Positions 991-43,610 of a DNA stretch of 64,000 bases are shown in pieces. The notes beneath the pieces were generated by a model, which was given only the letters and a program-made list of their open reading frames with translations, was not told the DNA's origin and made no database searches. Position 1 is the stretch's first letter; every line of letters starts with the position of its first letter. Both the position numbers and the translations under genes were made by a program. The DNA is from a virus, in IMG/VR virus record IMGVR_UViG_3300035666_000002. One strand, given 5' to 3'.

Positions 991-1362
991 TCATTTATCA
1001 ACAGAATACAGTATATCATGTTCATACAAAAACATCAAGCAACACATAGCGTGTGCTAGGTGATGTTTACCAGATTCGGGGTCTAGTTTCTCATTTTCTT
1101 TCCATGCCCACAAATGTCGTTGTAGTGCATCAAAATACCTACGCTTAGAATCTGGCACCAATTTCCAATTGTCACGCTCATACTTTTGAGCACCAAATGT
1201 CAATACATCAACGGTAGCTTTGAGTGCAAGAGGAGGAAGAAGCCCATATTCTAATTTACTACCATCAAACTTTCTACCACCTTCAGTGGCTACTTGTGAA
1301 CGAGCAACTTCATCCATGACATTAGTAGACTCAAAAAGTTCATATTGATCATCTTTCATCAT
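991..1362 (-). CDS. dATP/dGTP diphosphohydrolase-domain protein (DUF5664-like)
   Basis: GRKFDGSKLEYGLLP...VLTFGAQKYERDNW...YFDALQRHL..W...E.LDPESGKHHLAHAMCCLMFL signature. Confidence 0.8.
   Translation of the reverse strand: MMKDDQYELFESTNVMDEVARSQVATEGGRKFDGSKLEYGLLPPLALKATVDVLTFGAQKYERDNWKLVPDSKRRYFDALQRHLWAWKENEKLDPESGKHHLAHAMCCLMFLYEHDILYSVDK
1010..1038 (-). promoter_or_regulatory. Putative sigma70 promoter for gp45/gp44, inside the 3' end of the upstream gene
   Basis: Minus strand TTGATG-17 nt-TATACT with a TG extended -10. Confidence 0.45.
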
Positions 1363-2174
1363 AGTCTCCCAGTAAGTTCAGCAATCTTAGGCATATTGCC
1401 AGTGAAAGGATATGTTCCAATATGCTGAGTTCTCATCCAAGGGCACAAATAGATTTGACCTCCGATCTTTCTCCACAATTGACAAAACATATAGTCTTCA
1501 GAAAGATAACGGTCAGAACCACCACCTGTTGCACTCTCTTTAGTGTCGATGATAGTGTCAAAGTATGCATGAATATATCGTGAGCCATCGAAGTGTGCCT
1601 GCCCAACGTGATCTGGTTTGTATCGAAGTTGTGGATAAGCTTTCTCCATCTGTTCGAATACATGCCGCTTGATCAACATGAATCCAGTACCAATCTCTAG
1701 AACTTCTAGAGGATCAGTGACAGTGAATTGTTGAGTTCCTTTTACCACATTGAATACATAATCGCCAACAAGATTTTCTAATTCACCTGGGTTCATATCT
1801 GGATGTTTTCTTGCAGCTTCAGCAATATTAGCCCAGTTGATTGATTTTTTCGGATATGGACCACCAATCACGTCCTTATCTAGTGCTAGAAGAGCAATTA
1901 CATCTTGAGGATTGTAATGAATATCAGAATCGATAAACAATAGATGGGTACAATCTGAACGGAGAAATTCATCTGTTAGATAATTTCTAGCTCTGGTGAT
2001 CAAAGATTCGTTGAACAGAAATGAAAATCTTGTTTCGACTCCATACTTTGACATAATACCTTGAAGATCAAGACAAGACTTCACATACATGCCATGAGCC
2101 ATGCCACCATACATGGGTGTTGCAATAAACAGTTTGCTTTTTTTCAAGTCATCAATTTTTACTTTAATTTCCAT
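1359..2174 (-). CDS. GT-A fold glycosyltransferase-like protein
   Basis: KLFIATPMYGG...NESLITRARN...THLLFIDSDI (DxD)...IGTGFMLIKR...YLSEDYMFC...H.G pattern. Confidence 0.7.
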   Translation of the reverse strand: MEIKVKIDDLKKSKLFIATPMYGGMAHGMYVKSCLDLQGIMSKYGVETRFSFLFNESLITRARNYLTDEFLRSDCTHLLFIDSDIHYNPQDVIALLALDKDVIGGPYPKKSINWANIAEAARKHPDMNPGELENLVGDYVFNVVKGTQQFTVTDPLEVLEIGTGFMLIKRHVFEQMEKAYPQLRYKPDHVGQAHFDGSRYIHAYFDTIIDTKESATGGGSDRYLSEDYMFCQLWRKIGGQIYLCPWMRTQHIGTYPFTGNMPKIAELTGRL

Positions 2175-2242: not shown

Positions 2243-2527
2243 TTAGGCGAATGTGCGAACATTCTTCTCACGAAGAGAACGGTAACCAGCAGCAACAACT
2301 TCTTTGCTAGGCTTGCCCATACGATAGAAGGAAATCTTACGACCATCAGCAAGAGTTTTGCGGTTGGTATAGATAGGATATCCTTCTTCACGAAGTTCGT
2401 GAATACGGGCTGAAACGTTCGTAACACCAAAACGATTACGAGCAGAAGCTACAGTAAAAGTATTAAACCCTTCAGCTTTAGTAAGGGCATTTAGCATTTT
2501 TTGTTTAGCAGACATTTTAGTCATCAA
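2243..2527 (-). CDS. Small basic winged helix-turn-helix protein
   Basis: FTVASARNRFGVTNVSARIHELREEGYPIYTN...ISFYRM; own promoter, GGAG RBS and terminator. Confidence 0.7.
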   Translation of the reverse strand: MMTKMSAKQKMLNALTKAEGFNTFTVASARNRFGVTNVSARIHELREEGYPIYTNRKTLADGRKISFYRMGKPSKEVVAAGYRSLREKNVRTFA

Positions 2528-6096: not shown

Positions 6097-6146
6097 ATTC
6101 TACACAGTTCAGAATGCTTTGTCAACACTGTTGTAAAAATACAACA
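6097..6146 (-). promoter_or_regulatory. Sigma70 promoter with upstream palindrome TGTTGTA-N4-TACAACA
   Basis: TTGACA (6125-6120)-17 nt-TAGAAT (6102-6097); palindrome at 6129-6146; GAGG RBS before ATG 6072. Confidence 0.8.
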
Positions 6147-7475
6147 CTATCGTCCTACTTGATTCAGGTACTTATCTTTTGTTTCTTCCCAAGTCATGTA
6201 AATGAGGTCATCATAAAATAAGGTTTCATCTGACACTTTTTCTTTCTTCTTCAGAAAACCGATTCGTCCTCTTGCATGTTTTTCTTTCCAGATTTTGACC
6301 AATGCTTCGGTGCTGCTATCAAAAGTCTTTTTCATATCTTCGAACTTGCATTCTTTTCTGAGAAAATCAGAAGTCTTATCGTACAGAGGTGTAAAATAAA
6401 TTCCTCGCGCATGTTCAGAGCGAACTAATTCTTTTGGTACACCCATCTTTGAGTAGGTAAAGTTCAGCGACCGATTCTTGTGGTCTCTTTTAAAAGGTTG
6501 ACCAGCAGGATTGGTTGCCACATACCATTCAAAATATCTTTGCGTATGATTTACTTTCAACCATTGCTCAATGTCTTTACGTGTTTTCTTGCTTGGTTCA
6601 AAAGAAACAGAACCAGCAGTGAAGCCCATAGGCTTCCAATGATCCAGATTATCATACTGGCTCAGACCGTTTGCTTTTGTTTTACCATAGAGAGAAGTTG
6701 TTGTGACACCAACAAGCTTATCACCATAAACTTTTTCCCATAGATGCTGAACTTCATCAGACAAACAAAGCAGTGCTAGAAGTTTACCACCCACATAGTT
6801 ATAACCTAGAGGCTGAAAAGGAACAATGGTCGAACCGATTGCAGTATGATTAATCATTCGACCTTGTGTTTTGATTTCTCTCGACCAACCGATAAAACTA
6901 TCTCTTGGTGTTAGATCGAGAAAGTCGGATGAAATACAAATAACACCGAGATATTTTTTTGATGTACGATCTTTAACAAAGAAGTTCAGATTTCTTCCGA
7001 TGTTGCTGTTATTCTTCATCGTTGAGATGAATGTGCGAGCGGTGTTCCAATACTCAGGAAGATTCGATCTTTTTATTTTGATATCGACAGTATCACCATC
7101 AACAGTTTCTTTCTGAATGATTGTTGAATCATCTGTCCATTCAAGATATGGATCAAGACTCATATAATCATCCGGGCTAGTTGGCTTCCAGATATTCGAT
7201 TTAATGTGATCGATCATATCACCTTGTTCAGGATTCACAAGTTGTTTTTCCGAACCAAAGAGAGTATTCGTTTCTACAACGGGATATTTTTCTTGGACTT
7301 CACACCATTTTTGATAGAGAGTATACTCTTTAACGTCCATTTGTGAAACATAGGACAGTTCACGAATAACTCTTTCGGTCAGTTCTTTTTCATCAATCGT
7401 CTGGAAAGACTCGGAAGGATTAGCTTCCGACCATTCTTTCCATTGTCTCTTAACATCATCAGTCCAATTTTCCAT
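6147..7475 (-). CDS. DUF4338 / Druantia DruA-like domain protein
   Basis: IGRNLNFFVKD...YLGVICISSD..DLTPRD.FIGW; STIVPFQPLGYNYVGGKLLALL; LVGVTTTSLYG; SQYD.L..W...G.T.G motifs recognised by eye. Confidence 0.7.
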   Translation of the reverse strand: MENWTDDVKRQWKEWSEANPSESFQTIDEKELTERVIRELSYVSQMDVKEYTLYQKWCEVQEKYPVVETNTLFGSEKQLVNPEQGDMIDHIKSNIWKPTSPDDYMSLDPYLEWTDDSTIIQKETVDGDTVDIKIKRSNLPEYWNTARTFISTMKNNSNIGRNLNFFVKDRTSKKYLGVICISSDFLDLTPRDSFIGWSREIKTQGRMINHTAIGSTIVPFQPLGYNYVGGKLLALLCLSDEVQHLWEKVYGDKLVGVTTTSLYGKTKANGLSQYDNLDHWKPMGFTAGSVSFEPSKKTRKDIEQWLKVNHTQRYFEWYVATNPAGQPFKRDHKNRSLNFTYSKMGVPKELVRSEHARGIYFTPLYDKTSDFLRKECKFEDMKKTFDSSTEALVKIWKEKHARGRIGFLKKKEKVSDETLFYDDLIYMTWEETKDKYLNQVGR

Positions 7476-8462
7476 TCAATTTCCTATGATTTGATTCAAT
7501 CTCTCAGAGAATCTTTCGTAATACCACTCTTCAGAATATTGCTTACTAATATAATTTAGGAAAACTTTTTCTTTATATTTTTCAATCTCTGGTATTTTAC
7601 TATAAAGTTCTTCAACAGAAGAAACTCTCTGCCAAGGATCAGCGACTAGAGTGTTGTCTTCATCATAGTTTTTCCATACAAAAGGAAAAATATCACAAGC
7701 GATAGCTTCATGATATCGACTCGTAGTTGCTTTACTATCAAGCCAATTAAAACAAAGAGTAGACTTACCTTCTTCCAAGATGGGAACCAGATTATACATC
7801 GAATCAATTTTTTTGTCAGGTACAATTGAGTTGTACTTGCCGATAAAGTAGGAAGATATTTTGTTATCTTTTTTAATGCGTTTGAAAACTGTATGTCTCT
7901 CATCTCCACTTTCGATGTTATCAATCAGTTTTCTTTTGTCGCATCCCCAATAAACAAAATCATAATTTCTTTCAGTTTCAAACAGTTTGATACCTCGTCT
8001 TTGTCGGATAAAAAAGTATTTCATTCCGTGAAGACCACCAGGAATATCCATCTCATCAAAAGTAGAAAACTTTCCTATCAGATGCCCAGCAAAAGTTCTT
8101 TTTCGATACAGTTCTTCATTGTCTGCTCGGTCACTACGCACAATTACAACATGTTTATTGTGAAGATGACCTCCAATTTGATTTACAAATTCATCCGATC
8201 TTTCTTTGTGTCTTTGGTCAACATAACCTTTGATGTGTTGAAAAAATTCATTCTCACTGGGAATCAAAATGACATCAGAATCAGCAATGTCATCTAGTTT
8301 TTTTCTATTAGCGGCACCCCAGCCGAAATTACAAACACCATAATCGTGTTGAGGGTTTCGTACCATATACTCTTTGAAAAGATAATAGAAAGAATCCATA
8401 ATATCATGGAGAGGTTCTTTGTAATTAGTACCGCTTCGCAATCTAGCAATAGTCAATTTCAT
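7476..8462 (-). CDS. GT-B glycosyltransferase resembling T4 DNA beta-glucosyltransferase
   Basis: YDFVYWG...SGDER and TTSRYHEAIAC...YDEDNTLV...VSSVEELYSKI match recalled T4 BGT motifs DVIYGG..RSGQR and TLRVWETMAS...FDTKHRII...VNNRAELIDRV; similar size. Confidence 0.6.
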   Translation of the reverse strand: MKLTIARLRSGTNYKEPLHDIMDSFYYLFKEYMVRNPQHDYGVCNFGWGAANRKKLDDIADSDVILIPSENEFFQHIKGYVDQRHKERSDEFVNQIGGHLHNKHVVIVRSDRADNEELYRKRTFAGHLIGKFSTFDEMDIPGGLHGMKYFFIRQRRGIKLFETERNYDFVYWGCDKRKLIDNIESGDERHTVFKRIKKDNKISSYFIGKYNSIVPDKKIDSMYNLVPILEEGKSTLCFNWLDSKATTSRYHEAIACDIFPFVWKNYDEDNTLVADPWQRVSSVEELYSKIPEIEKYKEKVFLNYISKQYSEEWYYERFSERLNQIIGN

Positions 8463-11997: not shown

Positions 11998-12426
11998 TTA
12001 CCATTTATCTTTAATAGATTCAGCTTCTTGTACACGTTTGCGAAGTTCGGTTGTAGAGAAACTGTGTCTTCTTTTATTATAGAAGATCGGCATATTCATT
12101 TCTTTCCCGGTAAAAGTTTTATCCCGATATTCTTCACCAACAATTCTAACATCAATTGGATAAGAATTCAAGATGTCTATGAGGTCTTTTTCCGTAGCAT
12201 ATACAACAATTTCATCAATATACTTGCAAGCCTGAAGTTGAACGTATCTTTCAAATATTGATTGTATAGGTTTGTTCTTTTCTGACCTGTCCAATGTTGG
12301 ATCGGTTTGCAATCCAACAATCAGATAATCACATTGTTCTTTTGCATCTTTTAACATCATGATATGCCCAGCATGAAATAAATCAAATGTTGAGCAAGTG
12401 AATCCTACTTTCAAATCATCCTTCAT
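11998..12426 (-). CDS. TagD-like cytidylyltransferase
   Basis: TFDLFHAGH (HxGH), LIVGLQTD, RRHSFSTTELR. Confidence 0.85.
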   Translation of the reverse strand: MKDDLKVGFTCSTFDLFHAGHIMMLKDAKEQCDYLIVGLQTDPTLDRSEKNKPIQSIFERYVQLQACKYIDEIVVYATEKDLIDILNSYPIDVRIVGEEYRDKTFTGKEMNMPIFYNKRRHSFSTTELRKRVQEAESIKDKW

Positions 12427-33905: not shown

Positions 33906-34455
33906 ACCATGCTGCTATACTATATCTAGTGCCTCTTGTAACTGGGTTTGCTTTGTGGCGAAATAGTGAAGGAAAGTAAATGAATGTTCCTTGCTGATTA
34001 ATATCTTTGTCTAATTTCGCCGAAGTTTCTGTGAGTTCAAGTTCACCACCAACATAATCGTTTGGATCGGAAAGTTGAATTACACAAGATAATTTTCTAT
34101 GATAAATTGGATCATTGTTTATCCAAAAAACATCATGATGCTCTTTATATTCACCTAGATATGTTTCATCATATTCTGCAAACTGAATAAAATCTAATTT
34201 GGTGATATGAAGATTGAAAAAATCTCGATTTGCTTCGAGTGCTGTTCTCCATAGTGCATCGAAAATATATTGATATCTCCAATCACCGGAATTTATAAAT
34301 CTAATCTTACTTCTTCGGTAATTATAATCAACACCTTCACCACCGTCTGTTCCTATATAACCATCTTGTATAGGCAAAACTTGTACTTCACTTATAATTT
34401 TCTCACACATTTCCTTGCTGAAATATGATTTAAAATAACACCATTCACCTTTCAT
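33883..34455 (-). CDS. 2OG-Fe(II) oxygenase (PKHD/P4H-type)
   Basis: QFAEY...YKEHHD...RKLS..IQLSDP.DY.GGEL...G..I.FPS...H...PVTRGTRYS..AW..GP. Confidence 0.92.
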   Translation of the reverse strand: MKGEWCYFKSYFSKEMCEKIISEVQVLPIQDGYIGTDGGEGVDYNYRRSKIRFINSGDWRYQYIFDALWRTALEANRDFFNLHITKLDFIQFAEYDETYLGEYKEHHDVFWINNDPIYHRKLSCVIQLSDPNDYVGGELELTETSAKLDKDINQQGTFIYFPSLFRHKANPVTRGTRYSIAAWFEGPKWR

Positions 34456-34468
34456 TTTATAACAATCC

Positions 34469-36583
34469 TTATGTTTTAGATTTTATATATTCTATTTGAT
34501 CCTTTTGTTCTTTTAGAGCTTGTATTAAAAGTGGAACAACTCTTTCATACATAACAGTCAAATAGTTTTCACCAGATACACTATGCCCATATTTATTAGA
34601 GTCAAATGGAGCGTTTGTGATAACTTCAGGTAAAACCTCTTGAACTTCTTGCGCTATGAATCCTACCTGCCTTTCACCTTCTTTTTTGAAACCTAGTTGC
34701 TTGGCTAATTCATTCTGTTCATAATACACACCTCGAATTCTCTCCAATCTTTCCAAACTTTTTTCAACCGGTCCTAATATATCTTTTAATCTCATATCAG
34801 AGTAACCGGCAGTAATATCTCCTGTAGCCCTAACTGTTCCTGTCGTACCAGCAGCAGTGTTCACACCAAGTGCTGCAACTTGATTTGGTGGTACAGCGGG
34901 AGGTCCTTGAAAACCTTGTCTGCCTTGAAATCCAGAAGTTGTGCTTTGTGGTCCTTGAGGACCTTGAGCACCTTGTCTACCTTGAAATCCTGGTACTCCA
35001 AAAATATTCTGTGGACCTAGAGGTCCTTGTCTACCTTGAAATCCTGATGTGGTTGCTTGAGCACCTTGAGGTCCTTGAACTCCTTGGCGACCTTGGAATC
35101 CTACAGTTGTTCCTTGAACACCAGTTGCACCTTGAACTCCTTGGTGACCTTGGAATCCTGCTGTGGGTCCTTGTGCGCCTTGAGGTCCTTGGAATCCTTG
35201 TCTACCCTGAAATCCAGATGTTGGTCCTTGAGCACCTTGAGGCCCTTGAACTCCTTGGCGACCTTGGAACCCTGCTGTTGGTCCTTGAGCACCAGTTGCT
35301 CCTTGAACTCCTTGGTGACCTTGGAATCCTGCTGTGGGTCCTTGTGCGCCTTGGAATCCTTGTCGACCTTGGAATCCTTGTGCACCTGCTGTAGGTCCTT
35401 GAGCACCTTGAGGTCCTTGAAAACCAGAAGGTCCCTGAGCACCAGTTGTTGGTCCTTGAGCACCTTGGAATCCTTGTCGACCTTGGAATCCTTGAGCACC
35501 TGCTGTTGGTCCTTGAGCACCTTGCGGTCCTTGAAAACCAGAAGGTCCTTGAGCACCAGTTGTTGGTCCTTGAGCACCTTGAGGACCTTGGAATCCTTGT
35601 CTACCTTGGAATCCAGATGTTGGTCCTTGAGCACCAGTTGCTCCTTGAACTCCTTGGTGACCTTGGAATCCAGATGTTGGTCCTTGAGCACCTTGAGGTC
35701 CTTGGAATCCTTGGCGACCTTGGAATCCTACAGTTGTTCCTTGAACACCAGTTGCTCCTTGAACACCTTGGCGTCCTTGAAACCCTGCTGTTGGTCCTTG
35801 AGCGCCTTGCGGACCTTGAACTCCTTGAAATCCTTGAAACCCTGCTGTTGGTCCTTGAGCGCCTTGCGGACCTTGAACTCCTTGGCGACCTTGGAATCCT
35901 ACAGTTGTTCCTTGAACTCCTTGAGGACCTTGAACTCCTTGAGTGCCTTGAAAACCTGAAGTTACTCCTTGAGGTCCTTGAAAACCTTGTCTGCCTTGAG
36001 CACCTTGAAAGCCGAAAACAGAACTTTGTGCACCTTGAGGACCTTGAGGTCCTTGAACTCCTTGGAATCCAGATGTAGGTCCTTGAGCACCAGTTGCTCC
36101 TTGGACTCCTTGGGCACCTTGGAATCCCGCTGTGGGTCCTTGAGCACCTTGCGGTCCTTGGACTCCTTGGCGCCCTTGGAATCCTGCTGTTGGTCCTTGA
36201 GCACCTTGAGGTCCTTGAGCACCTTGAATGCCTTGAGCACCTGGTGCTCCAGTAGGACCAGAAACTCCTTGAAAACCCTGAGCGCCTTGAGCACCTGCAA
36301 CAGTGCTTTGTGCACCTTGAGGTCCTTGAGCACCTTGAATGCCTTGAGCACCTGGTGCTCCAGTAGGACCAGAAACTCCTTGAACTCCTTGAGCACCTTG
36401 AAATCCTGATGGACCTTGAACGCCTTGAAAACCTACAGCACCTTGCACTCCTTGAAAACCTTGCGGACCTTGAGGTCCTCTTATGTTTTGTGTGTCGCCT
36501 ATCCAAACACCATTAGCTGCAATAACACCATGTGTTTCAATTGTCAATCCATTTTTTACAACAAATGTATTTGCAGTAGCCAA
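34469..36583 (-). CDS. Collagen-like fibre A with C-terminal intramolecular chaperone (peptidase S74-like)
   Basis: TTG start; N-term FVVKNGL; about 530 aa Gly-X-Y with periodic one-residue insertions; GYSDMRLK...GFIAQEVQEVLPE...YERVVPLLIQALKE. Confidence 0.9.
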   Translation of the reverse strand: MATANTFVVKNGLTIETHGVIAANGVWIGDTQNIRGPQGPQGFQGVQGAVGFQGVQGPSGFQGAQGVQGVSGPTGAPGAQGIQGAQGPQGAQSTVAGAQGAQGFQGVSGPTGAPGAQGIQGAQGPQGAQGPTAGFQGRQGVQGPQGAQGPTAGFQGAQGVQGATGAQGPTSGFQGVQGPQGPQGAQSSVFGFQGAQGRQGFQGPQGVTSGFQGTQGVQGPQGVQGTTVGFQGRQGVQGPQGAQGPTAGFQGFQGVQGPQGAQGPTAGFQGRQGVQGATGVQGTTVGFQGRQGFQGPQGAQGPTSGFQGHQGVQGATGAQGPTSGFQGRQGFQGPQGAQGPTTGAQGPSGFQGPQGAQGPTAGAQGFQGRQGFQGAQGPTTGAQGPSGFQGPQGAQGPTAGAQGFQGRQGFQGAQGPTAGFQGHQGVQGATGAQGPTAGFQGRQGVQGPQGAQGPTSGFQGRQGFQGPQGAQGPTAGFQGHQGVQGATGVQGTTVGFQGRQGVQGPQGAQATTSGFQGRQGPLGPQNIFGVPGFQGRQGAQGPQGPQSTTSGFQGRQGFQGPPAVPPNQVAALGVNTAAGTTGTVRATGDITAGYSDMRLKDILGPVEKSLERLERIRGVYYEQNELAKQLGFKKEGERQVGFIAQEVQEVLPEVITNAPFDSNKYGHSVSGENYLTVMYERVVPLLIQALKEQKDQIEYIKSKT
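34900..36480 (-). repeat. Collagen repeat, dominant 57 nt (19 aa) unit
   Basis: GAQ-GPTA-GFQ-GRQ-GVQ-GPQ type units; boundaries approximate. Confidence 0.85.
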
Positions 36584-36589
36584 AGTTTA

Positions 36590-38770
36590 TTACCTTTTTT
36601 CTATTTTTTTAATTAAGTCTGATATAATTAATTGTTGTTCTTTTATAGCTTGAGTGATTACCGGAATTAGTTTCTCATATTGAACAGCAAGGAAATTTTC
36701 ACCAGTTTTACTTTTTCCATTTTCATCAAGATCAAAAGGTGCTTGTGATATAATTTCGGGAACAGAAGGTTGTATTTGTTGTGCTATGAGCCCAACTTTT
36801 CTCGAATAATCTTTATATCCATATTTCTCAGCCAATCTATTTTGGGTGTAGTAAATTCCTGTCATGTTTAATATTTTTTCTAAACAATTTTCAATGACAG
36901 CAATTTTTGTTTTCAATCTTGCATCCGAATATCCTGAAATAATATCACTTGTTGCTCTAATTGTTCCAGTCGGACCGGCAGCAGTATTTATACCTAAAGC
37001 ACTCACATTAGGTGTTGATGTGGTACCTTGAGCACCTTGAGGTCCTTGTGGACCTTGAGCACCTTGAGCACCTTGAACTCCAGTAAATCCAGTTGGACCT
37101 GCACCACCTTGTGGACCTTGCGGACCTTGCACACCTTGAAATCCAAAAGGTCCCCCAGGTCCTTGCGGTCCTTGTGGACCTTGAACTCCAACTGGACCCT
37201 GCGGACCTTGAGGACCTTGTGCTCCTTGCGGTCCTTGAACACCGACCGGACCTTGTGAACCAGGAGGTCCTTGCGGTCCTTGTGGACCTTGAACACCAAC
37301 TGGACCTTGAGGTCCTTGTGGACCTTGTGCTCCTTGAGGTCCTTGAACACCGACCGGACCTTGACCACCAACTGGACCTTGTGCTCCTTGAGGTCCTTGA
37401 ACACCGACCGGACCTTGAGGACCTTGCGGTCCTTGAGGACCTTGAGGTCCTTGAACACCAACTGGACCTTGTGCGCCTGGAGGTCCTTGAGGTCCTTGCG
37501 GTCCTTGAACTCCAACCGGACCTTGTACACCTACCGGTCCTTGAGGACCTTGAGGACCCTGTACGCCGACTGGTCCTTGAGGACCCTGAGGTCCTTGTGG
37601 ACCTTGAGGTCCTTGTACACCAACTGGACCTTGACCACCTATTGGTCCTTGAAAACCTGATGGTCCTTGGACACCAACAGGACCTTGAGGTCCTTGAGGT
37701 CCTTGCGGACCTTGAGGTCCTTGCACACCGACCGGACCTTGACCTCCTATTGGTCCCTGAAAACCTGATGGACCTTGAACACCAACAGGTCCTTGAGGAC
37801 CTTGCGGTCCTTGTGGTCCTTGCGGTCCTTGTACACCAACCGGACCTTGAACACCAACTGGTCCTTGAGGACCTTGAGGTCCTTGTACACCGACCGGTCC
37901 TTGAGGACCTTGAGGTCCTTGCGGACCTTGAGGTCCTTGCACACCGACTGGACCTTGTGTGCCAGGAGGTCCTTGCGGTCCTTGTGGTCCTTGCACACCG
38001 ACCGGTCCTTGTCCACCAATTGGACCCTGAGGTCCTTGCGGACCTTGTACACCAACCGGACCTTGTGCTCCAACAGGTCCTTGAGCACCTTGTGGACCTT
38101 GTACGCCAACTGGACCTTGTACACCGACCGGTCCTTGAGCGCCTTGTGGACCTTGAACACCAACAGGACCTTGAGGTCCTTGAGGTCCTTGCGGTCCTTG
38201 CGGTCCTTGTACGCCAACTGGACCTTGTACACCGACCGGTCCTTGAGCGCCTTGAGGTCCTTGAACACCAACAGGACCTTGTGCACCAGGAGGTCCTTGC
38301 GGACCTTGCGGACCTTGTACACCTACTGGACCTTGTCCACCAATTGGTCCCTGTGGACCTTGAGGACCTTGTACACCTACTGGACCTTGTCCACCAATTG
38401 GACCCTGTGGACCTTGAGCACCAGGAGGTCCTTGAAAACCAGGTGATCCTTGCGGACCTTGGGGTCCTTGTGGACCTTGTACACCAACTGGACCTTGTAC
38501 ACCAACTGGACCTTGAGGACCTTGAGCACCAGGAGGTCCTTGAAAACCAGGTGATCCTTGCGGACCTTGAGGACCTTGAGGACCTTGAACGCCAGAAAAT
38601 CCTTGTGGTCCTTGCGAACCTACAAACCCTTGAGGACCTTGACTGCCAGGATAGTTAGATTTATTTCCTTGCCAAATACCCGATGAAGATATAATTATCT
38701 TTCCATTAGATAAAGATGTATTGCTTACTGCTAATCCATTTTTTACTACAAAATCCTTATTAGTTGCCAT
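36590..38770 (-). CDS. Collagen-like fibre B with S74-like chaperone
   Basis: DFVVKNGL N-term; about 180 apparently uninterrupted Gly-X-Y triplets (GPQ/GVQ/GPV); GYSDARLK...[14 protein letters not shown]. Confidence 0.9.
37020..38647 (-). repeat. Collagen repeat, 54 nt (18 aa) unit
   Basis: [12 protein letters not shown]-GPx-GxQ units; boundaries approximate. Confidence 0.85.
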
Positions 38771-40979
38771 TCAATTTTTCTCTGAGAATTTCTATTTCTT
38801 TTTGTTGTATTTTTATTGTTTCAACAATTAGAGGTATAAGGAATTGATATTGAACCGTTAAATAATTTTGGCCGCTTTTACTGTTACCATATTCATCTAT
38901 ATCAAAAGGAGCTAAAGAAATAATTTCAGGTAATATCTTTTGAACTTCTTGTGCTATAACACCAATCTCTGTTTTATAAGTGTGATAACCAAACTTCTCT
39001 GACAATTCATTTTGTTTATAAAAAATAGCACTTAATGAATACAATTTTTTATCCGCTTCTTTTATGTATTCTATATTATCTTTAAGTCTTACATCAGAAA
39101 ATCCAGCAACAATATCGCTTGTTGCCCTTAATGTGCCTGTAGGACCAGCAGCAGTATTTACACCTAATGCCGTTGCTTGTGTGCCTAATGCTCCTACTAT
39201 ACCTTGAGCACCAGGAACTCCTGTAGGTCCTGTTGGACCTGGAGCACCTTGACGACCTTGTGCACCAGGAACACCTGATGAGCCTGTTGCACCTTGAGCA
39301 CCTTGAGCACCTTGTGCACCTGGAACTCCTGTTGGACCTGTTGGACCCGGAACTCCTTGAAATCCTGGAGCACCTGTTACTCCGGTTGGTCCTGTTGGAC
39401 CTGGAACGCCTTGTGCTCCTGAAACACCTGGAACACCCGTTGGTCCGGCAAAACCTGGAACACCTTGGAATCCTGGTGCACCTGGCACACCTGTAGGTCC
39501 TGTTGGACCTGGAACACCTTGAAATCCAGAAACGCCAGGAACTCCTGTTGGTCCTGTTGGACCTGGAACTCCTTGGGCGCCCGAAACTCCTGGTACACCT
39601 GTAGGCCCAGCAACACCTGGAACTCCTTGAAATCCTGGAGCACCTGGAACACCTGTAGGTCCAGTAACACCCGGAACTCCTTGAGCACCTGAAACACCTG
39701 GAACCCCGGTTGGTCCTGTCGGACCTGCTACACCTTGTGCTCCTGCAACACCCGGAACTCCTGTTGGTCCTGTAACACCCGGAACTCCTTGAGCACCCGA
39801 AATACCCGGAACTCCTGTCGGTCCAGTAACACCAGGAACACCTTGAAATCCTGAAGGTCCTGTAGAACCCGTTGCACCTTGCGGTCCGGGAACTCCTTGG
39901 GCACCTGAAACTCCTGGAACTCCTGTCGGTCCAGTAACACCAGGAACACCTTGAAATCCTGAAGGTCCTGTAGAACCCGTTGCACCTTGCGGTCCGGGAA
40001 CTCCTTGAAATCCTGAAGCACCAGGAATTCCTGTAGGACCCGTTGGACCTGGAACGCCTTGTGCTCCTGAAACACCTGGAACACCCGTTGGTCCAGCAAC
40101 ACCAGGAACACCTTGAAACCCTGGAGCTCCTGGAACTCCTGTGGGTCCCGTTGGACCTGGAACGCCTTGTGCTCCTGAAACACCTGGAACACCCGTTGGT
40201 CCGGCAACACCAGGAACACCTTGAAATCCAGAGACGCCTGGAACTCCTGTAGGTCCTGTTGGACCTGGAACACCTTGAAATCCAGAGACACCAGGTACGC
40301 CTGTGGCTCCTGTTGGACCTGGAACTCCTTGAGCACCAGATACGCCAGATACACCCGTAGGACCTTGAGGTCCTGGAACTCCTTGTGCCCCAGAAACGCC
40401 AGGCACGCCTGTAGGTCCTGTTTGTCCTGCAACACCTTGGAATCCTGGAGCACCTGAAACTCCTGTGGCACCTTGAGGTCCTGGAACACCTTGAGCGCCA
40501 GAAACGCCAGGCACACCTGTAGGTCCTGTTGGACCTGGAACACCTTGAAATCCAGAGACACCAGGTACGCCTGTGGGTCCTGTTGGACCTGGAACTCCTT
40601 GAAATCCAGAGACACCAGGTACTCCTGTGGGTCCTGTAATTCCCGTACCACCTTGTGGTCCTTGTGCACCTGCTACACTGCTTGCTGCTCCTTGAGGACC
40701 GAGAACGCCTTGAAATCCAGAAACACCAGTAGCTCCAGTTGCTCCAATTAAACCAGTAGCGCCTTGTGGTCCTTGTGCTCCCGCCACACTGCTAGCCGCA
40801 CCTTGTGCACCTTGAGTGCCTTGTGGACCTCTATCACCACCTTGACCGGTTGCTCCTTGAAATCCTGAAAATCCCGTTATATTTGTTCCGGGACCTATCC
40901 AGTTTCCTGATGAATCGATTACATCTGTAGTGCCTACAGACAAACCATTTTTTACTATGAAATTAGAATTAGTAGCCAA
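38760..40979 (-). CDS. Collagen-like fibre C with S74-like chaperone
   Basis: TTG start; NFIVKNGL N-term; Gly-X-Y rich in GVP/GPT/GVS; GFSDVRLK...[13 protein letters not shown]. Confidence 0.9.
39190..40880 (-). repeat. Collagen repeat, 54 nt (18 aa) unit
   Basis: [18 protein letters not shown] units; boundaries approximate. Confidence 0.85.
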
Positions 40980-41009
40980 GGTTCATTATCCCCTTTTTTA
41001 TTTTTTTAA

Positions 41010-43610
41010 TTATACAGGAATTAATGTTCTCATGGCTTTATATGTCGTAGAAGCATTAGTTGGTGTTGATAACAATCTAACTTGGCCTCCAGTTATATTG
41101 GCATCAAATGTTGCTAAAGATGCTCCAGTTCTTATCTCACCATATTGCACTAAAAATACTGTGCTACCATCATGGACTAAACTTATCTCTATGACTTGAT
41201 ATGCAGAACCACTTGTTATCTGAACAAAGTATTTTGCTGATCTATAAACAGAAGAACTAAAGAAATCTAATATAAACTCTGTTGTACTAGACGTTGTTTG
41301 TGTAGTTGATGATAATGTAGAATTGGTGTTAAGTGTAATTGAAGTATTTGATATGAGAGAAGAACCAGTTAATGTTGAACTAGTTGTTAAAGCTCCAGTC
41401 ATAACATCGCCAGATTTATTGACTTTGGCGATATTAATTGCTCCAGTGTTGGCTAAAATTTCTAATCTAGCCGCACCCGTATTTGCTTGTGCAGCAGCGG
41501 TATCAGCAATTCTGGCGGCACCAACGTTCGCCTGATATGCATTGGTAATCGATGTTGTGGTTGATATTAAACCAGCACCAACATTAGCTTGAGAGATAGT
41601 CTGGTATGAAATTAAACCAGCACCAACATTAGCTTGTGAAGAGGCGGTATCAGCAATTCTAGCGGCACCGATATTTGCTTCGTATGCATTTGTAACAGAA
41701 ATTAAGCCTGCACCAACATTAGATTGACTACTTGATTGTATTGTATTTGCATAGTCAAGTGGATCTAATCCACGCAAACTTATTACATTTGTAACAAGAT
41801 TAGCACTTAGAGTTGCAACTCTAGTGTTTGCAACATCAATTATGTTTGTTGGTTCATTGTTTGTTAATAAATTGTCAAATAGGTAATATTTACCGTCTGA
41901 GTGTTTACGAACTAAACCGGTATGATTGTTTGGTGTGTTTGCATAGTGTCCAACAAAACCAATATCCAAAGCATCAGTTGAATTTTCAAACCCCAACTGA
42001 ATTATAGTATCAGTAACTTTAAGTGAGGTAACATTAATAGTGGTAGTGTTTCCAGCAATGGTTAAATTTCCCGTTACTGCCAAATCGCCCGAAATTGTAC
42101 CACCTGTTTTGTCCAGTTTATTTAATAAACCAGCGCCAACGTTTGCTTGATAAGCGTTTGTTACTGATATTAGACCAAGACCAACATTAGCTTCAGTCGT
42201 AGCTCTATCTGCAATTCTAGCCGCACCAACGTTTGCTTGATAAGCATTTGTTACCGATATTAGACCAAAACCAACATTTGCTTGACTTGCAGCCGTGTCG
42301 GTGATTCTAGCTGCTCCAATGTTTGCTTGGAGCCAAGTATTTGCAGTATTTGAAGATTCGAAAGCTAAATTTGCTTGATCAAAGGCTGAGTTTGCTCTGT
42401 TTGAAATGGCAATAAAGCTTGGAGTTGTGGAGTCGGACAATACTAGATCGGATGCACCAGAAATAGAAAGTGTTCCTGATGAATTGCTGATAACTGTTCC
42501 ACCCAAGTCGATAGAACCTGGTCCCACAAACAATGAATGCCAGCGTTTTGAAGGAGATCCTAAATTCCAAGTAACATCAGTATTGGGTGTAATGTTTCCT
42601 GAGACTTCAACATTTCCTAAAATTAACCCGCCAGTTTTGGCAAAGAATGTGCTATCAGCATAATTCTTTAAATTGGTATTTGCTGTTATTATCCCTATAC
42701 CAACGTTCGCTTCAGTCGTTGCTCTGTCTGCAATTCTAGCTGCACCAACATTTGCCTCATAAGCATTCGTGACTGATATTAATCCAGCACCGACGTTAGC
42801 TTGTGAAGCAGCAGCATCAGCGATTCTGGCGGCACCAATGTTTGCATATATGCTATTAACATTAGATACTAAATCTATACGAAGTTCACCAGTATTAGCA
42901 TAAACACCATTTGAAAGTAAATCAATTTTATCCAGCAAGAATATTTTTGCACCACCAACATTAGCCTGTAGCCAGGTATTTGCCGTATTCGATGAATCAT
43001 ACGCTTGTTGAGCTAAAATGTTTGCAGAATTAGCTTTATTGAAGGCTAAATTCGCTTGGTCGAATGCTGAGTTAGCAAGATTTCTAGCCGTAGTGTCTGG
43101 TGCGGATCCAGGATTTAAAAGGTTTGTTCCTGCACCACCAACGCATTCCGTTAAATCTATATAAGCTCCTCGGGCGCCACCGCCTTGCTCAAAGAATCTT
43201 ATTTTATTTTGATACGAATCAATAGTTATACCAACACCATCAAGTGTGGTATTGGTTACAGCCTTAGCTAATAATATTTCACCACCCTCATCACCGCCAG
43301 AATTGTTTGATATCAGCTTATTTGCTGTGACATCTACACTGGCTAATATTTTGTCTGTGCTAAGAGTTTTTGTGCTGGTGTCATATTTGAGATTTGCTGA
43401 AGCTCCAAATACACCAGAGTTATTGAATTGTATTTCACCGTTTAAACCGCTTGGTTCTGTTACGACATCAAATTGTGTGGCTATAGATGAAGAATTGCCA
43501 TAATACAATTTTCCATCATAATAGTTGATAGCAAGTTCACCAGGATATAATGTTGCTGGAACATTTCCTGCTTGACCTGAATTTTTTAATAAAATTATTG
43601 TATTAGCCAT
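41010..43610 (-). CDS. Fibre protein with Mtd-N/hyaluronidase-like N-terminus and ANVGAARI repeats
   Basis: P..LYPGELAINYYDGKLYYG N-term; QANVGAARI/QANVGAGLIS repeats; KTGGTISG; C-terminal YRSAKYFVQ..E...HDG...YG domain common in T4-like virion proteins. Confidence 0.8.
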   Translation of the reverse strand: MANTIILLKNSGQAGNVPATLYPGELAINYYDGKLYYGNSSSIATQFDVVTEPSGLNGEIQFNNSGVFGASANLKYDTSTKTLSTDKILASVDVTANKLISNNSGGDEGGEILLAKAVTNTTLDGVGITIDSYQNKIRFFEQGGGARGAYIDLTECVGGAGTNLLNPGSAPDTTARNLANSAFDQANLAFNKANSANILAQQAYDSSNTANTWLQANVGGAKIFLLDKIDLLSNGVYANTGELRIDLVSNVNSIYANIGAARIADAAASQANVGAGLISVTNAYEANVGAARIADRATTEANVGIGIITANTNLKNYADSTFFAKTGGLILGNVEVSGNITPNTDVTWNLGSPSKRWHSLFVGPGSIDLGGTVISNSSGTLSISGASDLVLSDSTTPSFIAISNRANSAFDQANLAFESSNTANTWLQANIGAARITDTAASQANVGFGLISVTNAYQANVGAARIADRATTEANVGLGLISVTNAYQANVGAGLLNKLDKTGGTISGDLAVTGNLTIAGNTTTINVTSLKVTDTIIQLGFENSTDALDIGFVGHYANTPNNHTGLVRKHSDGKYYLFDNLLTNNEPTNIIDVANTRVATLSANLVTNVISLRGLDPLDYANTIQSSSQSNVGAGLISVTNAYEANIGAARIADTASSQANVGAGLISYQTISQANVGAGLISTTTSITNAYQANVGAARIADTAAAQANTGAARLEILANTGAINIAKVNKSGDVMTGALTTSSTLTGSSLISNTSITLNTNSTLSSTTQTTSSTTEFILDFFSSSVYRSAKYFVQITSGSAYQVIEISLVHDGSTVFLVQYGEIRTGASLATFDANITGGQVRLLSTPTNASTTYKAMRTLIPV

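What the first reader, a model, noticed from the sequence alone, without database searches (positions are those of the whole stretch)
6147..8462. T4 BGT-like glycosyltransferase abutting a DruA/DUF4338-like gene: candidate DNA hypermodification pair
Seen: the two genes abut (TGA directly followed by ATG) at the end of the gp47-gp46-def run. The first retains motifs matching the UDP-binding region of T4 beta-glucosyltransferase (TSRYHE vs TLRVWE, recalled from memory). The second resembles the domain of the bacterial defence protein DruA. Inference: a DNA base is glycosylated and then further decorated (DruA-like proteins may have a GNAT/Mom-like acyltransferase fold), or the phage has co-opted a defence component.
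Basis: partly seen in the sequence, partly recalled or inferred. Interest (0 to 1): 0.7.

Follow-up and report, generated by a model that had tools for sequence, protein, structure and literature searches.

The report
BGT-like glycosyltransferase paired with DruA-like acyltransferase
A freshwater T4-like phage of the SAR11-phage group carries a distant relative of the T4 DNA glucosyltransferase right next to a DruA-family acyltransferase, and this pairing recurs in hundreds of related phage contigs that show no detectable hydroxymethyl-base pathway, so it is a good candidate for a new kind of DNA decoration.

Summary
Two minus-strand genes abut (TGA|ATG) after gp47-gp46-deformylase.

- **Gene 2 (6147-7475, 442 aa)** is a Pfam DruA/DUF4338 protein (E 1.8e-20) with a GNAT fold. 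Phage Mu Mom is the top structural hit, but it is tied with ordinary GNATs.

**Linkage is real but one-sided.**
- The GNAT is a core gene: 76 of 80 closest loci have it without the glycosyltransferase.
- The glycosyltransferase is accessory, yet it lies beside a DUF4338 gene in two clades only 36-39% identical, in both gene orders and next to two different DUF4338 paralogues.

**Supporting context.**
- No ThyA-type hydroxymethylase or TET/JBP was found in seven large genomes that carry the glycosyltransferase.
- DUF4338 relatives are fused to UDG, ParB and DUF3102 domains.

**Best reading (about 0.45):** a DNA-modification module independent of hydroxymethyl bases, with the GNAT acting first and the sugar as an optional second step. 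Biochemistry is untested.

The scan noted this stretch before only as an overlapping first-reader note on the same DNA.

The parts
7476..8462 (-). Accessory glycosyltransferase gene (328 aa): GT-B fold, distant relative of T4 beta-glucosyltransferase
7707..7724 (-). TSRYHE motif (residues 247-252); R249 and E252 align with T4 BGT R269 and E272 in TLRVWE
   Evidence: R249, Y250, H251 and E252 are invariant in 42 homologues.
7896..7952 (-). YWGCDKR...SGDER segment (residues 171-189). A low-confidence global alignment places K176 opposite BGT R191 and R189 opposite BGT R195.
   Evidence: Y171, W172, G173, K176, S185, D187 and R189 are invariant.
8130..8132 (-). Codon of invariant D111, at the end of strand 104-109. 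It lies within one position of BGT catalytic D100 in the global alignment.
   Evidence: PDB 1nzd is the D100A mutant.
6147..7475 (-). Core DUF4338/DruA-family gene (442 aa): N-terminal helical/hairpin domain, GNAT domain, C-terminal helices
   Evidence: Pfam PF14236 at E 1.8e-20, PADLOC DruA, and phrog_19197 at E 2.9e-27. AF2 model with pLDDT 94.
6318..7166 (-). GNAT-fold domain (about residues 104-386)
6783..6815 (-). Conserved QPxGxNxxGGK segment (residues 221-231). It resembles GNAT motif A (Q/RxxGxG/A).
   Evidence: Calling it motif A rests on general knowledge of GNATs and was not tested by superposition.
6097..6125 (-). Sigma-70-like site TTGACA-17-TAGAAT in the gap after the DUF4338 stop, ahead of the peptidase gene. 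It probably marks the 3' boundary of the unit.
   Evidence: This is a consensus match only; the number of sites in the region is not above shuffles.

Best explanation
**What is shown**
- The genes encode (i) a nucleotide-sugar glycosyltransferase of the GT-B fold whose nearest known relative is T4 DNA beta-glucosyltransferase, and (ii) a DruA/DUF4338-family protein with a GNAT acyltransferase fold.
- The GNAT is a core gene of these T4-like phages of SAR11-type hosts.
- The glycosyltransferase is an accessory single-gene insert that is found, again and again, directly beside a DUF4338 gene.

**What is inferred**
- Both enzymes act on phage DNA.
- The GNAT puts an acyl or aminoacyl group on a base after replication. 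Phage Mu Mom does this with glycyl-tRNA.
- Where the glycosyltransferase is present, it flips out the modified base and adds a sugar to the appended group, or to DNA in the same pathway.
- The result would be a hypermodification that needs no hydroxymethylcytosine or hydroxymethyluracil.
- The likely benefit is protection from host nucleases or other DNA-sensing defences.
For: **Fold and sequence**
- GT model pLDDT 93.
- hhalign against a 7-member BGT alignment gives prob 78%, E 1.9e-5. R249 aligns with R269 and E252 with E272.
- A PF09198 cluster ranks among the top feature hits in the ESM Atlas.
- The GNAT fold is confirmed, with Mom ranked first of 48,161 chains.
- DUF4338 is called a GNAT in PMC10853773.
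- Mom is a GNAT that modifies dsDNA using Gly-tRNA (PMC13219725).

**Linkage**
- In 80 viral loci of clade 1, every GT of 54% identity or more with enough downstream DNA is followed by DUF4338, apart from L040 and L042-046.
- In clade 2 (36-39% identical), 105 of 136 loci have DUF4338 directly adjacent. Most run pol>DUF4338>GT>uvsX, which is the other paralogue and the opposite order. By tblastn 77 of 90 unique GT sequences have DUF4338 in the +/-5 kb locus; the HMM count by locus finds it within 3 kb in 117 of 136.
- A fused GT in a non-T4 backbone (resolvase, HU) has a full-length DUF4338 about 1 kb away.

**DNA context**
- DUF4338 relatives are fused to UDG, ParB_N, DUF3102 and LAGLIDADG/NUMOD3 domains.
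- Both insertion sites lie in the replication/recombination module.
- Where DUF4338 is absent, the GT is followed by a DNA-methylase-like protein, with or without a 2OG oxygenase.
- No ThyA-family or Tet_JBP gene was found in seven large genomes that carry the GT.
Against: - No biochemical evidence exists for either protein.
- P0001 gets no Pfam PF09198 hit even at E<=1. Its identity to BGT is only 11-14%.
- Its pI is 6.8, against 9.05 for T4 BGT, so it is not an obviously basic DNA binder.
- Mom is statistically tied with ordinary GNATs (margin 0.9 Z), and profile comparison to Mom is not significant.
- GNAT plus GT-B pairs are also common in sugar and glycan pathways.
- Pelagimyophages are rich in glycan genes, and SAR11 genomes rarely encode restriction-modification systems (PMC7029224).
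- The GT occurs without a nearby DUF4338 in some lineages: L040, L042-046, L068-085, and 10 clade-2 loci.
- Most large contigs are incomplete, so failing to find a pathway gene in them is not proof that it is absent.
Confidence: 0.45

Rival explanations
1. A glycan or small-molecule pathway, not DNA. The GNAT N-acylates an NDP-amino sugar, a glycan or a protein, and the GT-B enzyme transfers a sugar onto a virion or host-envelope acceptor.
For: - GNAT plus GT-B partnerships are usual in polysaccharide biosynthesis (general knowledge).
- Pelagimyophages carry many LPS-type glycosyltransferases, and the authors favour surface modification (PMC7029224).
- HTVC008M has UDP-glucose dehydrogenase, carbamoyltransferases and another GT.
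- The window holds a cytidylyltransferase-like gene.
- P0001 has a neutral pI.
Against: - The closest fold by a clear margin is the DNA enzyme BGT.
- Both insertion sites are in the replication module, not in the glycan islands.
- DUF4338 is fused to UDG, ParB and DUF3102 in relatives.
- DUF4338 is core and mostly lacks this GT.
- DruA belongs to a DNA-targeting defence system.
Confidence: 0.2
2. Two unrelated functions. The adjacency is positional: the GT has landed in variable hot spots of the replication module that happen to flank core DUF4338 genes.
For: - 76 of 80 closest DUF4338 loci lack the GT, which is a single-gene indel between the deformylase gene and DUF4338.
- The gp46-to-peptidase interval carries varying extra genes in relatives, including 2OG oxygenases and MazG.
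- Some GT lineages have no DUF4338 nearby.
Against: - Adjacency recurs at two separate genome positions, next to two different paralogues and in both orders.
- It also recurs in non-T4 or rearranged backbones.
- With about 200 genes and two DUF4338 genes per genome, chance adjacency is roughly 2% per independent placement (my rough estimate).
Confidence: 0.12
3. Classical scheme: a hydroxymethylated pyrimidine is made, glucosylated by the BGT-like enzyme, and the sugar is then acylated by the GNAT.
For: - BGT family likeness.
- Many 2OG-Fe(II) oxygenases in these genomes could include an unrecognised DNA base hydroxylase.
- One lineage has GT, then a 2OG oxygenase, then a methylase-like gene.
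Against: - No PF00303 or PF12851 match in seven large genomes that carry the GT.
- The GNAT is present without the GT in most genomes, so it cannot depend on the sugar.
Confidence: 0.08
4. Anti-defence mimicry: the phage DruA-like protein interferes with host Druantia-type systems, and the GT is incidental.
For: Homology to DruA.
Against: - The phage family is large (890 clusters at 50% identity).
- It is core, duplicated and retains conserved GNAT motifs.
- No Druantia partner genes are nearby.
- Nothing suggests Druantia in SAR11-type hosts.
Confidence: 0.05

Closest known systems
T4 DNA beta-glucosyltransferase (BGT; CAZy GT63, Pfam PF09198)
   Same: - Minimal GT-B fold of similar size (328 against 351 aa).
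- C-terminal nucleotide-binding region is alignable, with R and E of T(L/S)R(V/Y)(W/H)E conserved.
- Phage gene in the DNA replication/recombination module.
   Different: - 11-14% identity and no Pfam hit.
- Neutral pI.
- No dCMP hydroxymethylase in the genomes, so the acceptor cannot be the usual 5-hmC.
- Linked to a GNAT gene rather than to gene 42.
Phage Mu Mom (GNAT-fold, Gly-tRNA-dependent adenine N6 modification of dsDNA; PDB 8bv8)
   Same: - GNAT fold with an insertion.
- Top structural hit for the DUF4338 domain.
- Phage-encoded.
- A cyanophage homologue of the short DUF4338 form has been annotated as Mom-like by others (PMC12801897).
   Different: - No significant sequence relation.
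- The Z margin over ordinary GNATs is under 1.
- P0002 is twice as long, with extra N- and C-terminal domains.
- Donor and target are unknown.
DruA of type I Druantia (DUF4338, PF14236)
   Same: Same Pfam family, well above the cut-off. Similar length and domain span (PADLOC DruA model positions 121-370 of 407).
   Different: - Encoded by a lytic T4-like phage as a core gene, in two paralogues.
- No DruB-E partners.
- DruA's own function is unknown, so the comparison gives no mechanism.
Two-step phage DNA hypermodification pathways (for example T-even hmC glucosylation, where the base change is core and the sugar step varies)
   Same: A core first step with a variable, lineage-specific glycosyltransferase. 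The genes sit among replication genes.
   Different: Here the presumed first step would be a post-replicative acyl transfer by a GNAT, not a nucleotide-level hydroxymethylation.

Membership tests
T4 BGT family (PF09198 / GT63) | Compact two-Rossmann GT-B fold most similar to BGT | tested here: met
T4 BGT family (PF09198 / GT63) | Match to the Pfam PF09198 model above its cut-off | tested here: not met
   No Pfam family at E<=1.
T4 BGT family (PF09198 / GT63) | Detectable sequence homology to BGT proteins | tested here: inconclusive
   hhalign gives prob 78%, E 1.9e-5, but over the C-terminal 105 columns only. An Atlas PF09198 cluster scores 0.96.
T4 BGT family (PF09198 / GT63) | UDP-binding Arg/Glu of the TLRVWE segment (R269, E272) | tested here: met
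   R249 and E252 align with them and are invariant in 42 homologues. The role of these residues in BGT is from my memory of the BGT structures.
T4 BGT family (PF09198 / GT63) | Catalytic Asp100 and phosphate-binding R191/R195 | tested here: inconclusive
   The global hhalign has low confidence. It places invariant D111 one position from D100, K176 opposite R191 and R189 opposite R195. No residue-level superposition was available.
T4 BGT family (PF09198 / GT63) | 5-hmC acceptor supplied by a dCMP hydroxymethylase in the same genome | tested here: not met
   PF00303 is absent from HTVC008M, G001 and five other large genomes that carry the GT.
T4 BGT family (PF09198 / GT63) | Sugar transfer to DNA | not testable with these tools
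   Needs an enzyme assay or nucleoside mass spectrometry.
DruA / DUF4338 (PF14236) | Match to the Pfam model above the cut-off | tested here: met
   73.7 bits against a cut-off of 27, E 1.8e-20. PADLOC DruA at E 1.3e-17.
Type I Druantia system | Operon with DruB-DruE, including the large DruE helicase | tested here: not met
   The neighbours are deformylase, gp46/47, peptidase and CobS. This is a lytic phage backbone.
GNAT superfamily | GNAT fold | tested here: met
GNAT superfamily | Motif A (Q/RxxGxG/A) cofactor loop | tested here: inconclusive
   QPxGxNxxGGK is conserved in 53 homologues. Its equivalence to motif A was not checked by superposition.
Mom family | Specific structural or sequence likeness to Mu Mom beyond the generic GNAT fold | tested here: inconclusive
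Mom family | Aminoacyl-tRNA-dependent modification of dsDNA | not testable with these tools
   Needs biochemistry.

The most novel reading that the evidence does not exclude
DUF4338/DruA proteins are DNA base acyl- or aminoacyl-transferases, and the BGT-like enzyme glycosylates their product. This would be a DNA glycosylation pathway that needs no hydroxymethyl base, present in very abundant aquatic phages. It would imply that DruA is the DNA-marking component of type I Druantia.
Probability: 0.25. Interest if true: 0.9.

Novelty: new variant of a known kind. Interest (0 to 1): 0.68.

Why it matters
Phages of SAR11-type bacteria are among the most abundant viruses in water, yet nothing is known about modification of their DNA.

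- **A new route to glycosylated DNA.** A conserved module of a BGT-like glycosyltransferase and a GNAT, with no detectable hydroxymethyl-base pathway, would be a new route to glycosylated DNA.
- **A hypothesis for DruA.** I found no paper in the searchable library that assigns DruA/DUF4338 a function. This module offers a concrete, testable one.
- **A natural comparison.** Two cultured phages provide it: HTVC008M carries both genes, and Mosig EXVC030M carries the GNAT only.

Tried and rejected
- **ThyX lead.** ThyX was absent from the two complete clade-1 genomes that carry the GT and present in four genomes without it. The pattern failed in clade 2, where 3 of 5 GT-carrying genomes have ThyX. 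I dropped it as a clade effect.
- **Complex prediction of GT with DUF4338.** No verdict.
- **Sequence searches of the PDB with single proteins.** Nothing useful.
- **Megablast of the pair against cultured phages.** No match.
- **Exact-word search for the source contig in viral contigs.** None found. No whole genome is held for the window, so pathway searches used relatives.
- **C-terminal extension of the fused GT forms P0049 and P0051.** No convincing Pfam or PHROG family, and no likeness to HTVC008M gp105.
- **N-terminal 105 residues of P0002 in the Atlas.** No informative hit. The helix-helix-helix-hairpin order in the model looks winged-helix-like, but this was not tested.
- **Sequencing runs.** No RNA holder is listed.
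- **Promoter/terminator scan of the region.** Counts are not above shuffles.
- **Literature.** No paper in the library links DUF4338 with a BGT-like gene or gives a DruA function.

Full report
**Setting.** All genes in the first 64 kb lie on the minus strand. The window belongs to a T4-like myovirus related to the Pelagibacter phages HTVC008M and Mosig EXVC030M (Kyanoviridae).
- tblastn of the two proteins finds these phages at 54-60% identity.
- The neighbours are gp45, CobS, a peptidase, deformylase, gp46, gp47, gp55, UvsW, UvsY and gp23.
- The stretch occurs almost word for word in 20 lake-water metagenome runs from 2020 to 2024. The phage is therefore probably a freshwater member of this group.
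- No whole genome is held for the window.

**Observation.** The ORFs 7476-8462 (328 aa, P0001) and 6147-7475 (442 aa, P0002) are as described, and the TGA of the first is followed at once by the ATG of the second. The deformylase gene overlaps the start of P0001 by 4 nt. There is no terminator-like site on the coding strand within the unit. A good sigma-70-like site lies only after the P0002 stop, ahead of the peptidase gene (consensus match only).

**The glycosyltransferase.** P0001 has no Pfam, PADLOC or informative PHROG match.
- It has at least 814 homologues in aquatic metagenomes, none with a Pfam domain.
- An AlphaFold2 model from 42 homologues is confident (pLDDT 93, pTM 0.90) and shows two Rossmann-like halves.
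- Foldseek against the PDB puts T4 beta-glucosyltransferase first (1j39, E 5e-7) and T4 alpha-glucosyltransferase next.
- T4 BGT, read from the T4 record, carries TLRVWE at residues 267-272. Profile comparison of the P0001 family with seven BGT proteins gives prob 78%, E 1.9e-5 over the last 105 columns, with R249 opposite R269 and E252 opposite E272.
- A forced global alignment of low confidence puts invariant K176 and R189 opposite R191 and R195, and invariant D111 one position from D100.
- The roles of these BGT residues (phosphate and ribose contacts, general base) are from my memory of the BGT structures. The PDB title 'BGT-D100A mutant' is consistent with them.
- The ESM Atlas feature search also places a cluster that is 100% PF09198 among the top hits, at score 0.96.
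- A 'DNA beta-glucosyltransferase' is third in the viral structure library.
- Against a DNA role, P0001 has a pI of 6.8 while T4 BGT has 9.05.

**The DruA-like protein.** P0002 hits Pfam DruA at 73.7 bits, two PADLOC DruA models, and phrog_19197.
- The full-database search finds 890 clusters at 50% identity.
- The model from 53 diverse homologues has pLDDT 94.
- Profile comparison with Mom is not significant. The only match is a 17-column stretch containing RGVYF against RGVYL.
- A QPxGxNxxGGK segment is conserved.
- Aravind's group already lists DUF4338 as a GNAT (PMC10853773).
- Mom has recently been shown to be a GNAT that uses Gly-tRNA to modify adenine in dsDNA (PMC13219725).
- A cyanophage homologue of the short form has been annotated as Mom-like (PMC12801897).
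- Larger relatives of P0002 carry UDG, ParB N-terminal, DUF3102 and LAGLIDADG/NUMOD3/HTH_7 domains. These point to DNA as the working surface.

**Linkage.** This is the main new result, and it is one-sided.

*The GNAT is core.* Of the 80 viral contigs with the closest P0002 relatives (69-76% identity), 76 read deformylase>DUF4338>peptidase>CobS with no glycosyltransferase, and three have it. Mosig also has it without the GT. Near-complete genomes with and without the GT each hold two DUF4338 paralogues. The second lies next to the DNA polymerase and corresponds to HTVC008M gp122, the phrog_19197 prototype.

*The glycosyltransferase follows DUF4338.* Among 80 contigs with P0001 relatives:
- All those of 54% identity or more with enough downstream DNA have DUF4338 next, with gaps from a few bases up to about 210 nt by the tblastn coordinates, or about 600 nt in the HTVC008M type. 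The exceptions are L040 and a small group (L042-046) placed between RNR and a RuvC-like gene.
- A more distant subgroup (46-51% identity) lacks DUF4338 nearby. There the GT is followed by a 355-398 aa protein with weak DNA-methyltransferase hits (PHROG E 4e-6 to 3.5e-5; Pfam below cut-off). In one lineage a 2OG-Fe(II) oxygenase lies between them.

*Remote relatives keep the pairing.*
- L183 (39% identical to P0001) reads DNA polymerase>DUF4338 paralogue 2>GT, with start and stop overlapping, then UvsX.
- L184 (36% identical) reads nuclease>GT>DUF4338.
- This second clade gave 136 viral loci. DUF4338 is directly adjacent in 105, within 3 kb in 12 more, and absent despite adequate flanks in 10.
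- Among 90 unique GT sequences, 77 have DUF4338 within +/-5 kb. The arrangements are pol>DUF>GT, DUF>GT>pol, nuclease>DUF>GT, nuclease>GT>DUF and pol>GT>DUF.
- A fused 541-aa form of the GT (58% identical) sits in a non-T4 backbone with a resolvase and an HU protein. A full-length DUF4338 (30% identical to P0002) lies about 1 kb away, in convergent orientation.

Adjacency at two genome positions, with two paralogues, in both orders and outside the T4-like backbone is hard to explain as a hot-spot accident.

**Acceptor.** The ThyA/dCMP-hydroxymethylase family and Tet_JBP were sought in six frames and not found in:
- HTVC008M;
- G001 (146 kb, 99% complete);
- five large clade-2 genomes carrying the GT;
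- two genomes without the GT.

The control genomes gave the expected PF00303 hits. For Tet_JBP the controls held no match above the cut-off, so that search had no positive control. Several of the large contigs are incomplete, so a missing match in those is weak evidence. Taken together, the classical hmC or hmU route is unlikely.

The GT is a single-gene insert with no co-inserted partner. Its acceptor must therefore be something the core genome already provides, and the gene it keeps company with is the GNAT.

**Proposed mechanism.** This is inferred, with confidence about 0.45. The GNAT modifies a DNA base after replication. The glycosyltransferase is an optional second step on that product.

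**Rivals.**
- A glycan or small-molecule pathway (0.2). These phages are rich in sugar genes, and SAR11 rarely has restriction systems.
- Coincidental adjacency (0.12).
- The classical hydroxymethyl scheme (0.08).
- Anti-Druantia mimicry (0.05).

**Novelty.** I found no paper that pairs DUF4338 with a BGT-like gene, discusses this gene in pelagimyophages, or gives DruA a function. I file the GT as a distant relative of the BGT family, not a member. It misses the Pfam model, and the hmC context was tested and not met. I file P0002 as a member of PF14236 but not of a Druantia system.

Noticed in passing
window 991-1362 (-): 123-aa protein matching PF18909, the N-terminal domain of dATP/dGTP diphosphohydrolase (MazZ-like), at E 3.5e-33. 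It is conserved downstream of phrog_1574 in many relatives. Mosig has a MazG gene right after its DUF4338 gene.
   Followed up: partly
window 11998-12426 (-): 142-aa cytidylyltransferase-like protein (PF01467, E 5e-17) next to gp47. It is present in only some relatives, both with and without the GT.
   Followed up: partly
window 1359-2174 (-): 271-aa phrog_1574 protein with an Anp1 (GT62 mannosyltransferase) hit just under the Pfam cut-off (28.5 against 28.8 bits). It is highly conserved (about 80% identity) across relatives.
   Followed up: no
window 34000-42000: GC content rises to 43-49% against about 35% elsewhere, with many overlapping antisense ORFs. Earlier notes read this block as collagen-like fibre genes with modifying enzymes.
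   Followed up: no
L005:5536-6660 (HTVC008M gp122); L175, L174: A second DUF4338 paralogue (about 375 aa, the phrog_19197 prototype) lies directly after the DNA polymerase gene in pelagimyophages, whether or not they carry the GT.
   Followed up: yes
L076:6245-7312, L080:8980-10074, L077:8986-10831: In a GT subgroup without DUF4338, the GT is followed by a 355-398 aa protein with weak DNA-methyltransferase hits, overlapping start and stop in L076 and L080. In L077 the 2OG-Fe(II) oxygenase lies between them. A 250-aa phrog_7093 protein lies upstream.
   Followed up: partly
L180-L182: A 541-aa GT with an unexplained extension of about 190 aa at the C-terminus lies in a non-T4 element with a serine resolvase and an HU-like protein. 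None of ten neighbouring proteins has a PHROG match.
   Followed up: partly
P0271, P0322, P0325, P0341, P0388: DUF4338 domains fused to UDG, ParB N-terminal, DUF3102 and LAGLIDADG/NUMOD3/HTH_7 domains.
   Followed up: partly
P0002 residues 346-362 against Mu Mom 185-201: Short shared RGVY(F/L) stretch. R357 and G358 are nearly invariant or invariant in the DUF4338 family. In Mom the stretch lies in the HTH-like insertion reported as essential. It is not statistically significant.
   Followed up: no
window 2243-2527 (-): 94-aa winged-helix protein (PF14090 HTH_39, E 2.9e-8) between CobS and phrog_1574.
   Followed up: no
window 6147-8462: The stretch is held at 94-100% of sampled words by 20 lake-water metagenome runs from 2020-2024. 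The phage is therefore a persistent freshwater population, not a marine one.
   Followed up: no
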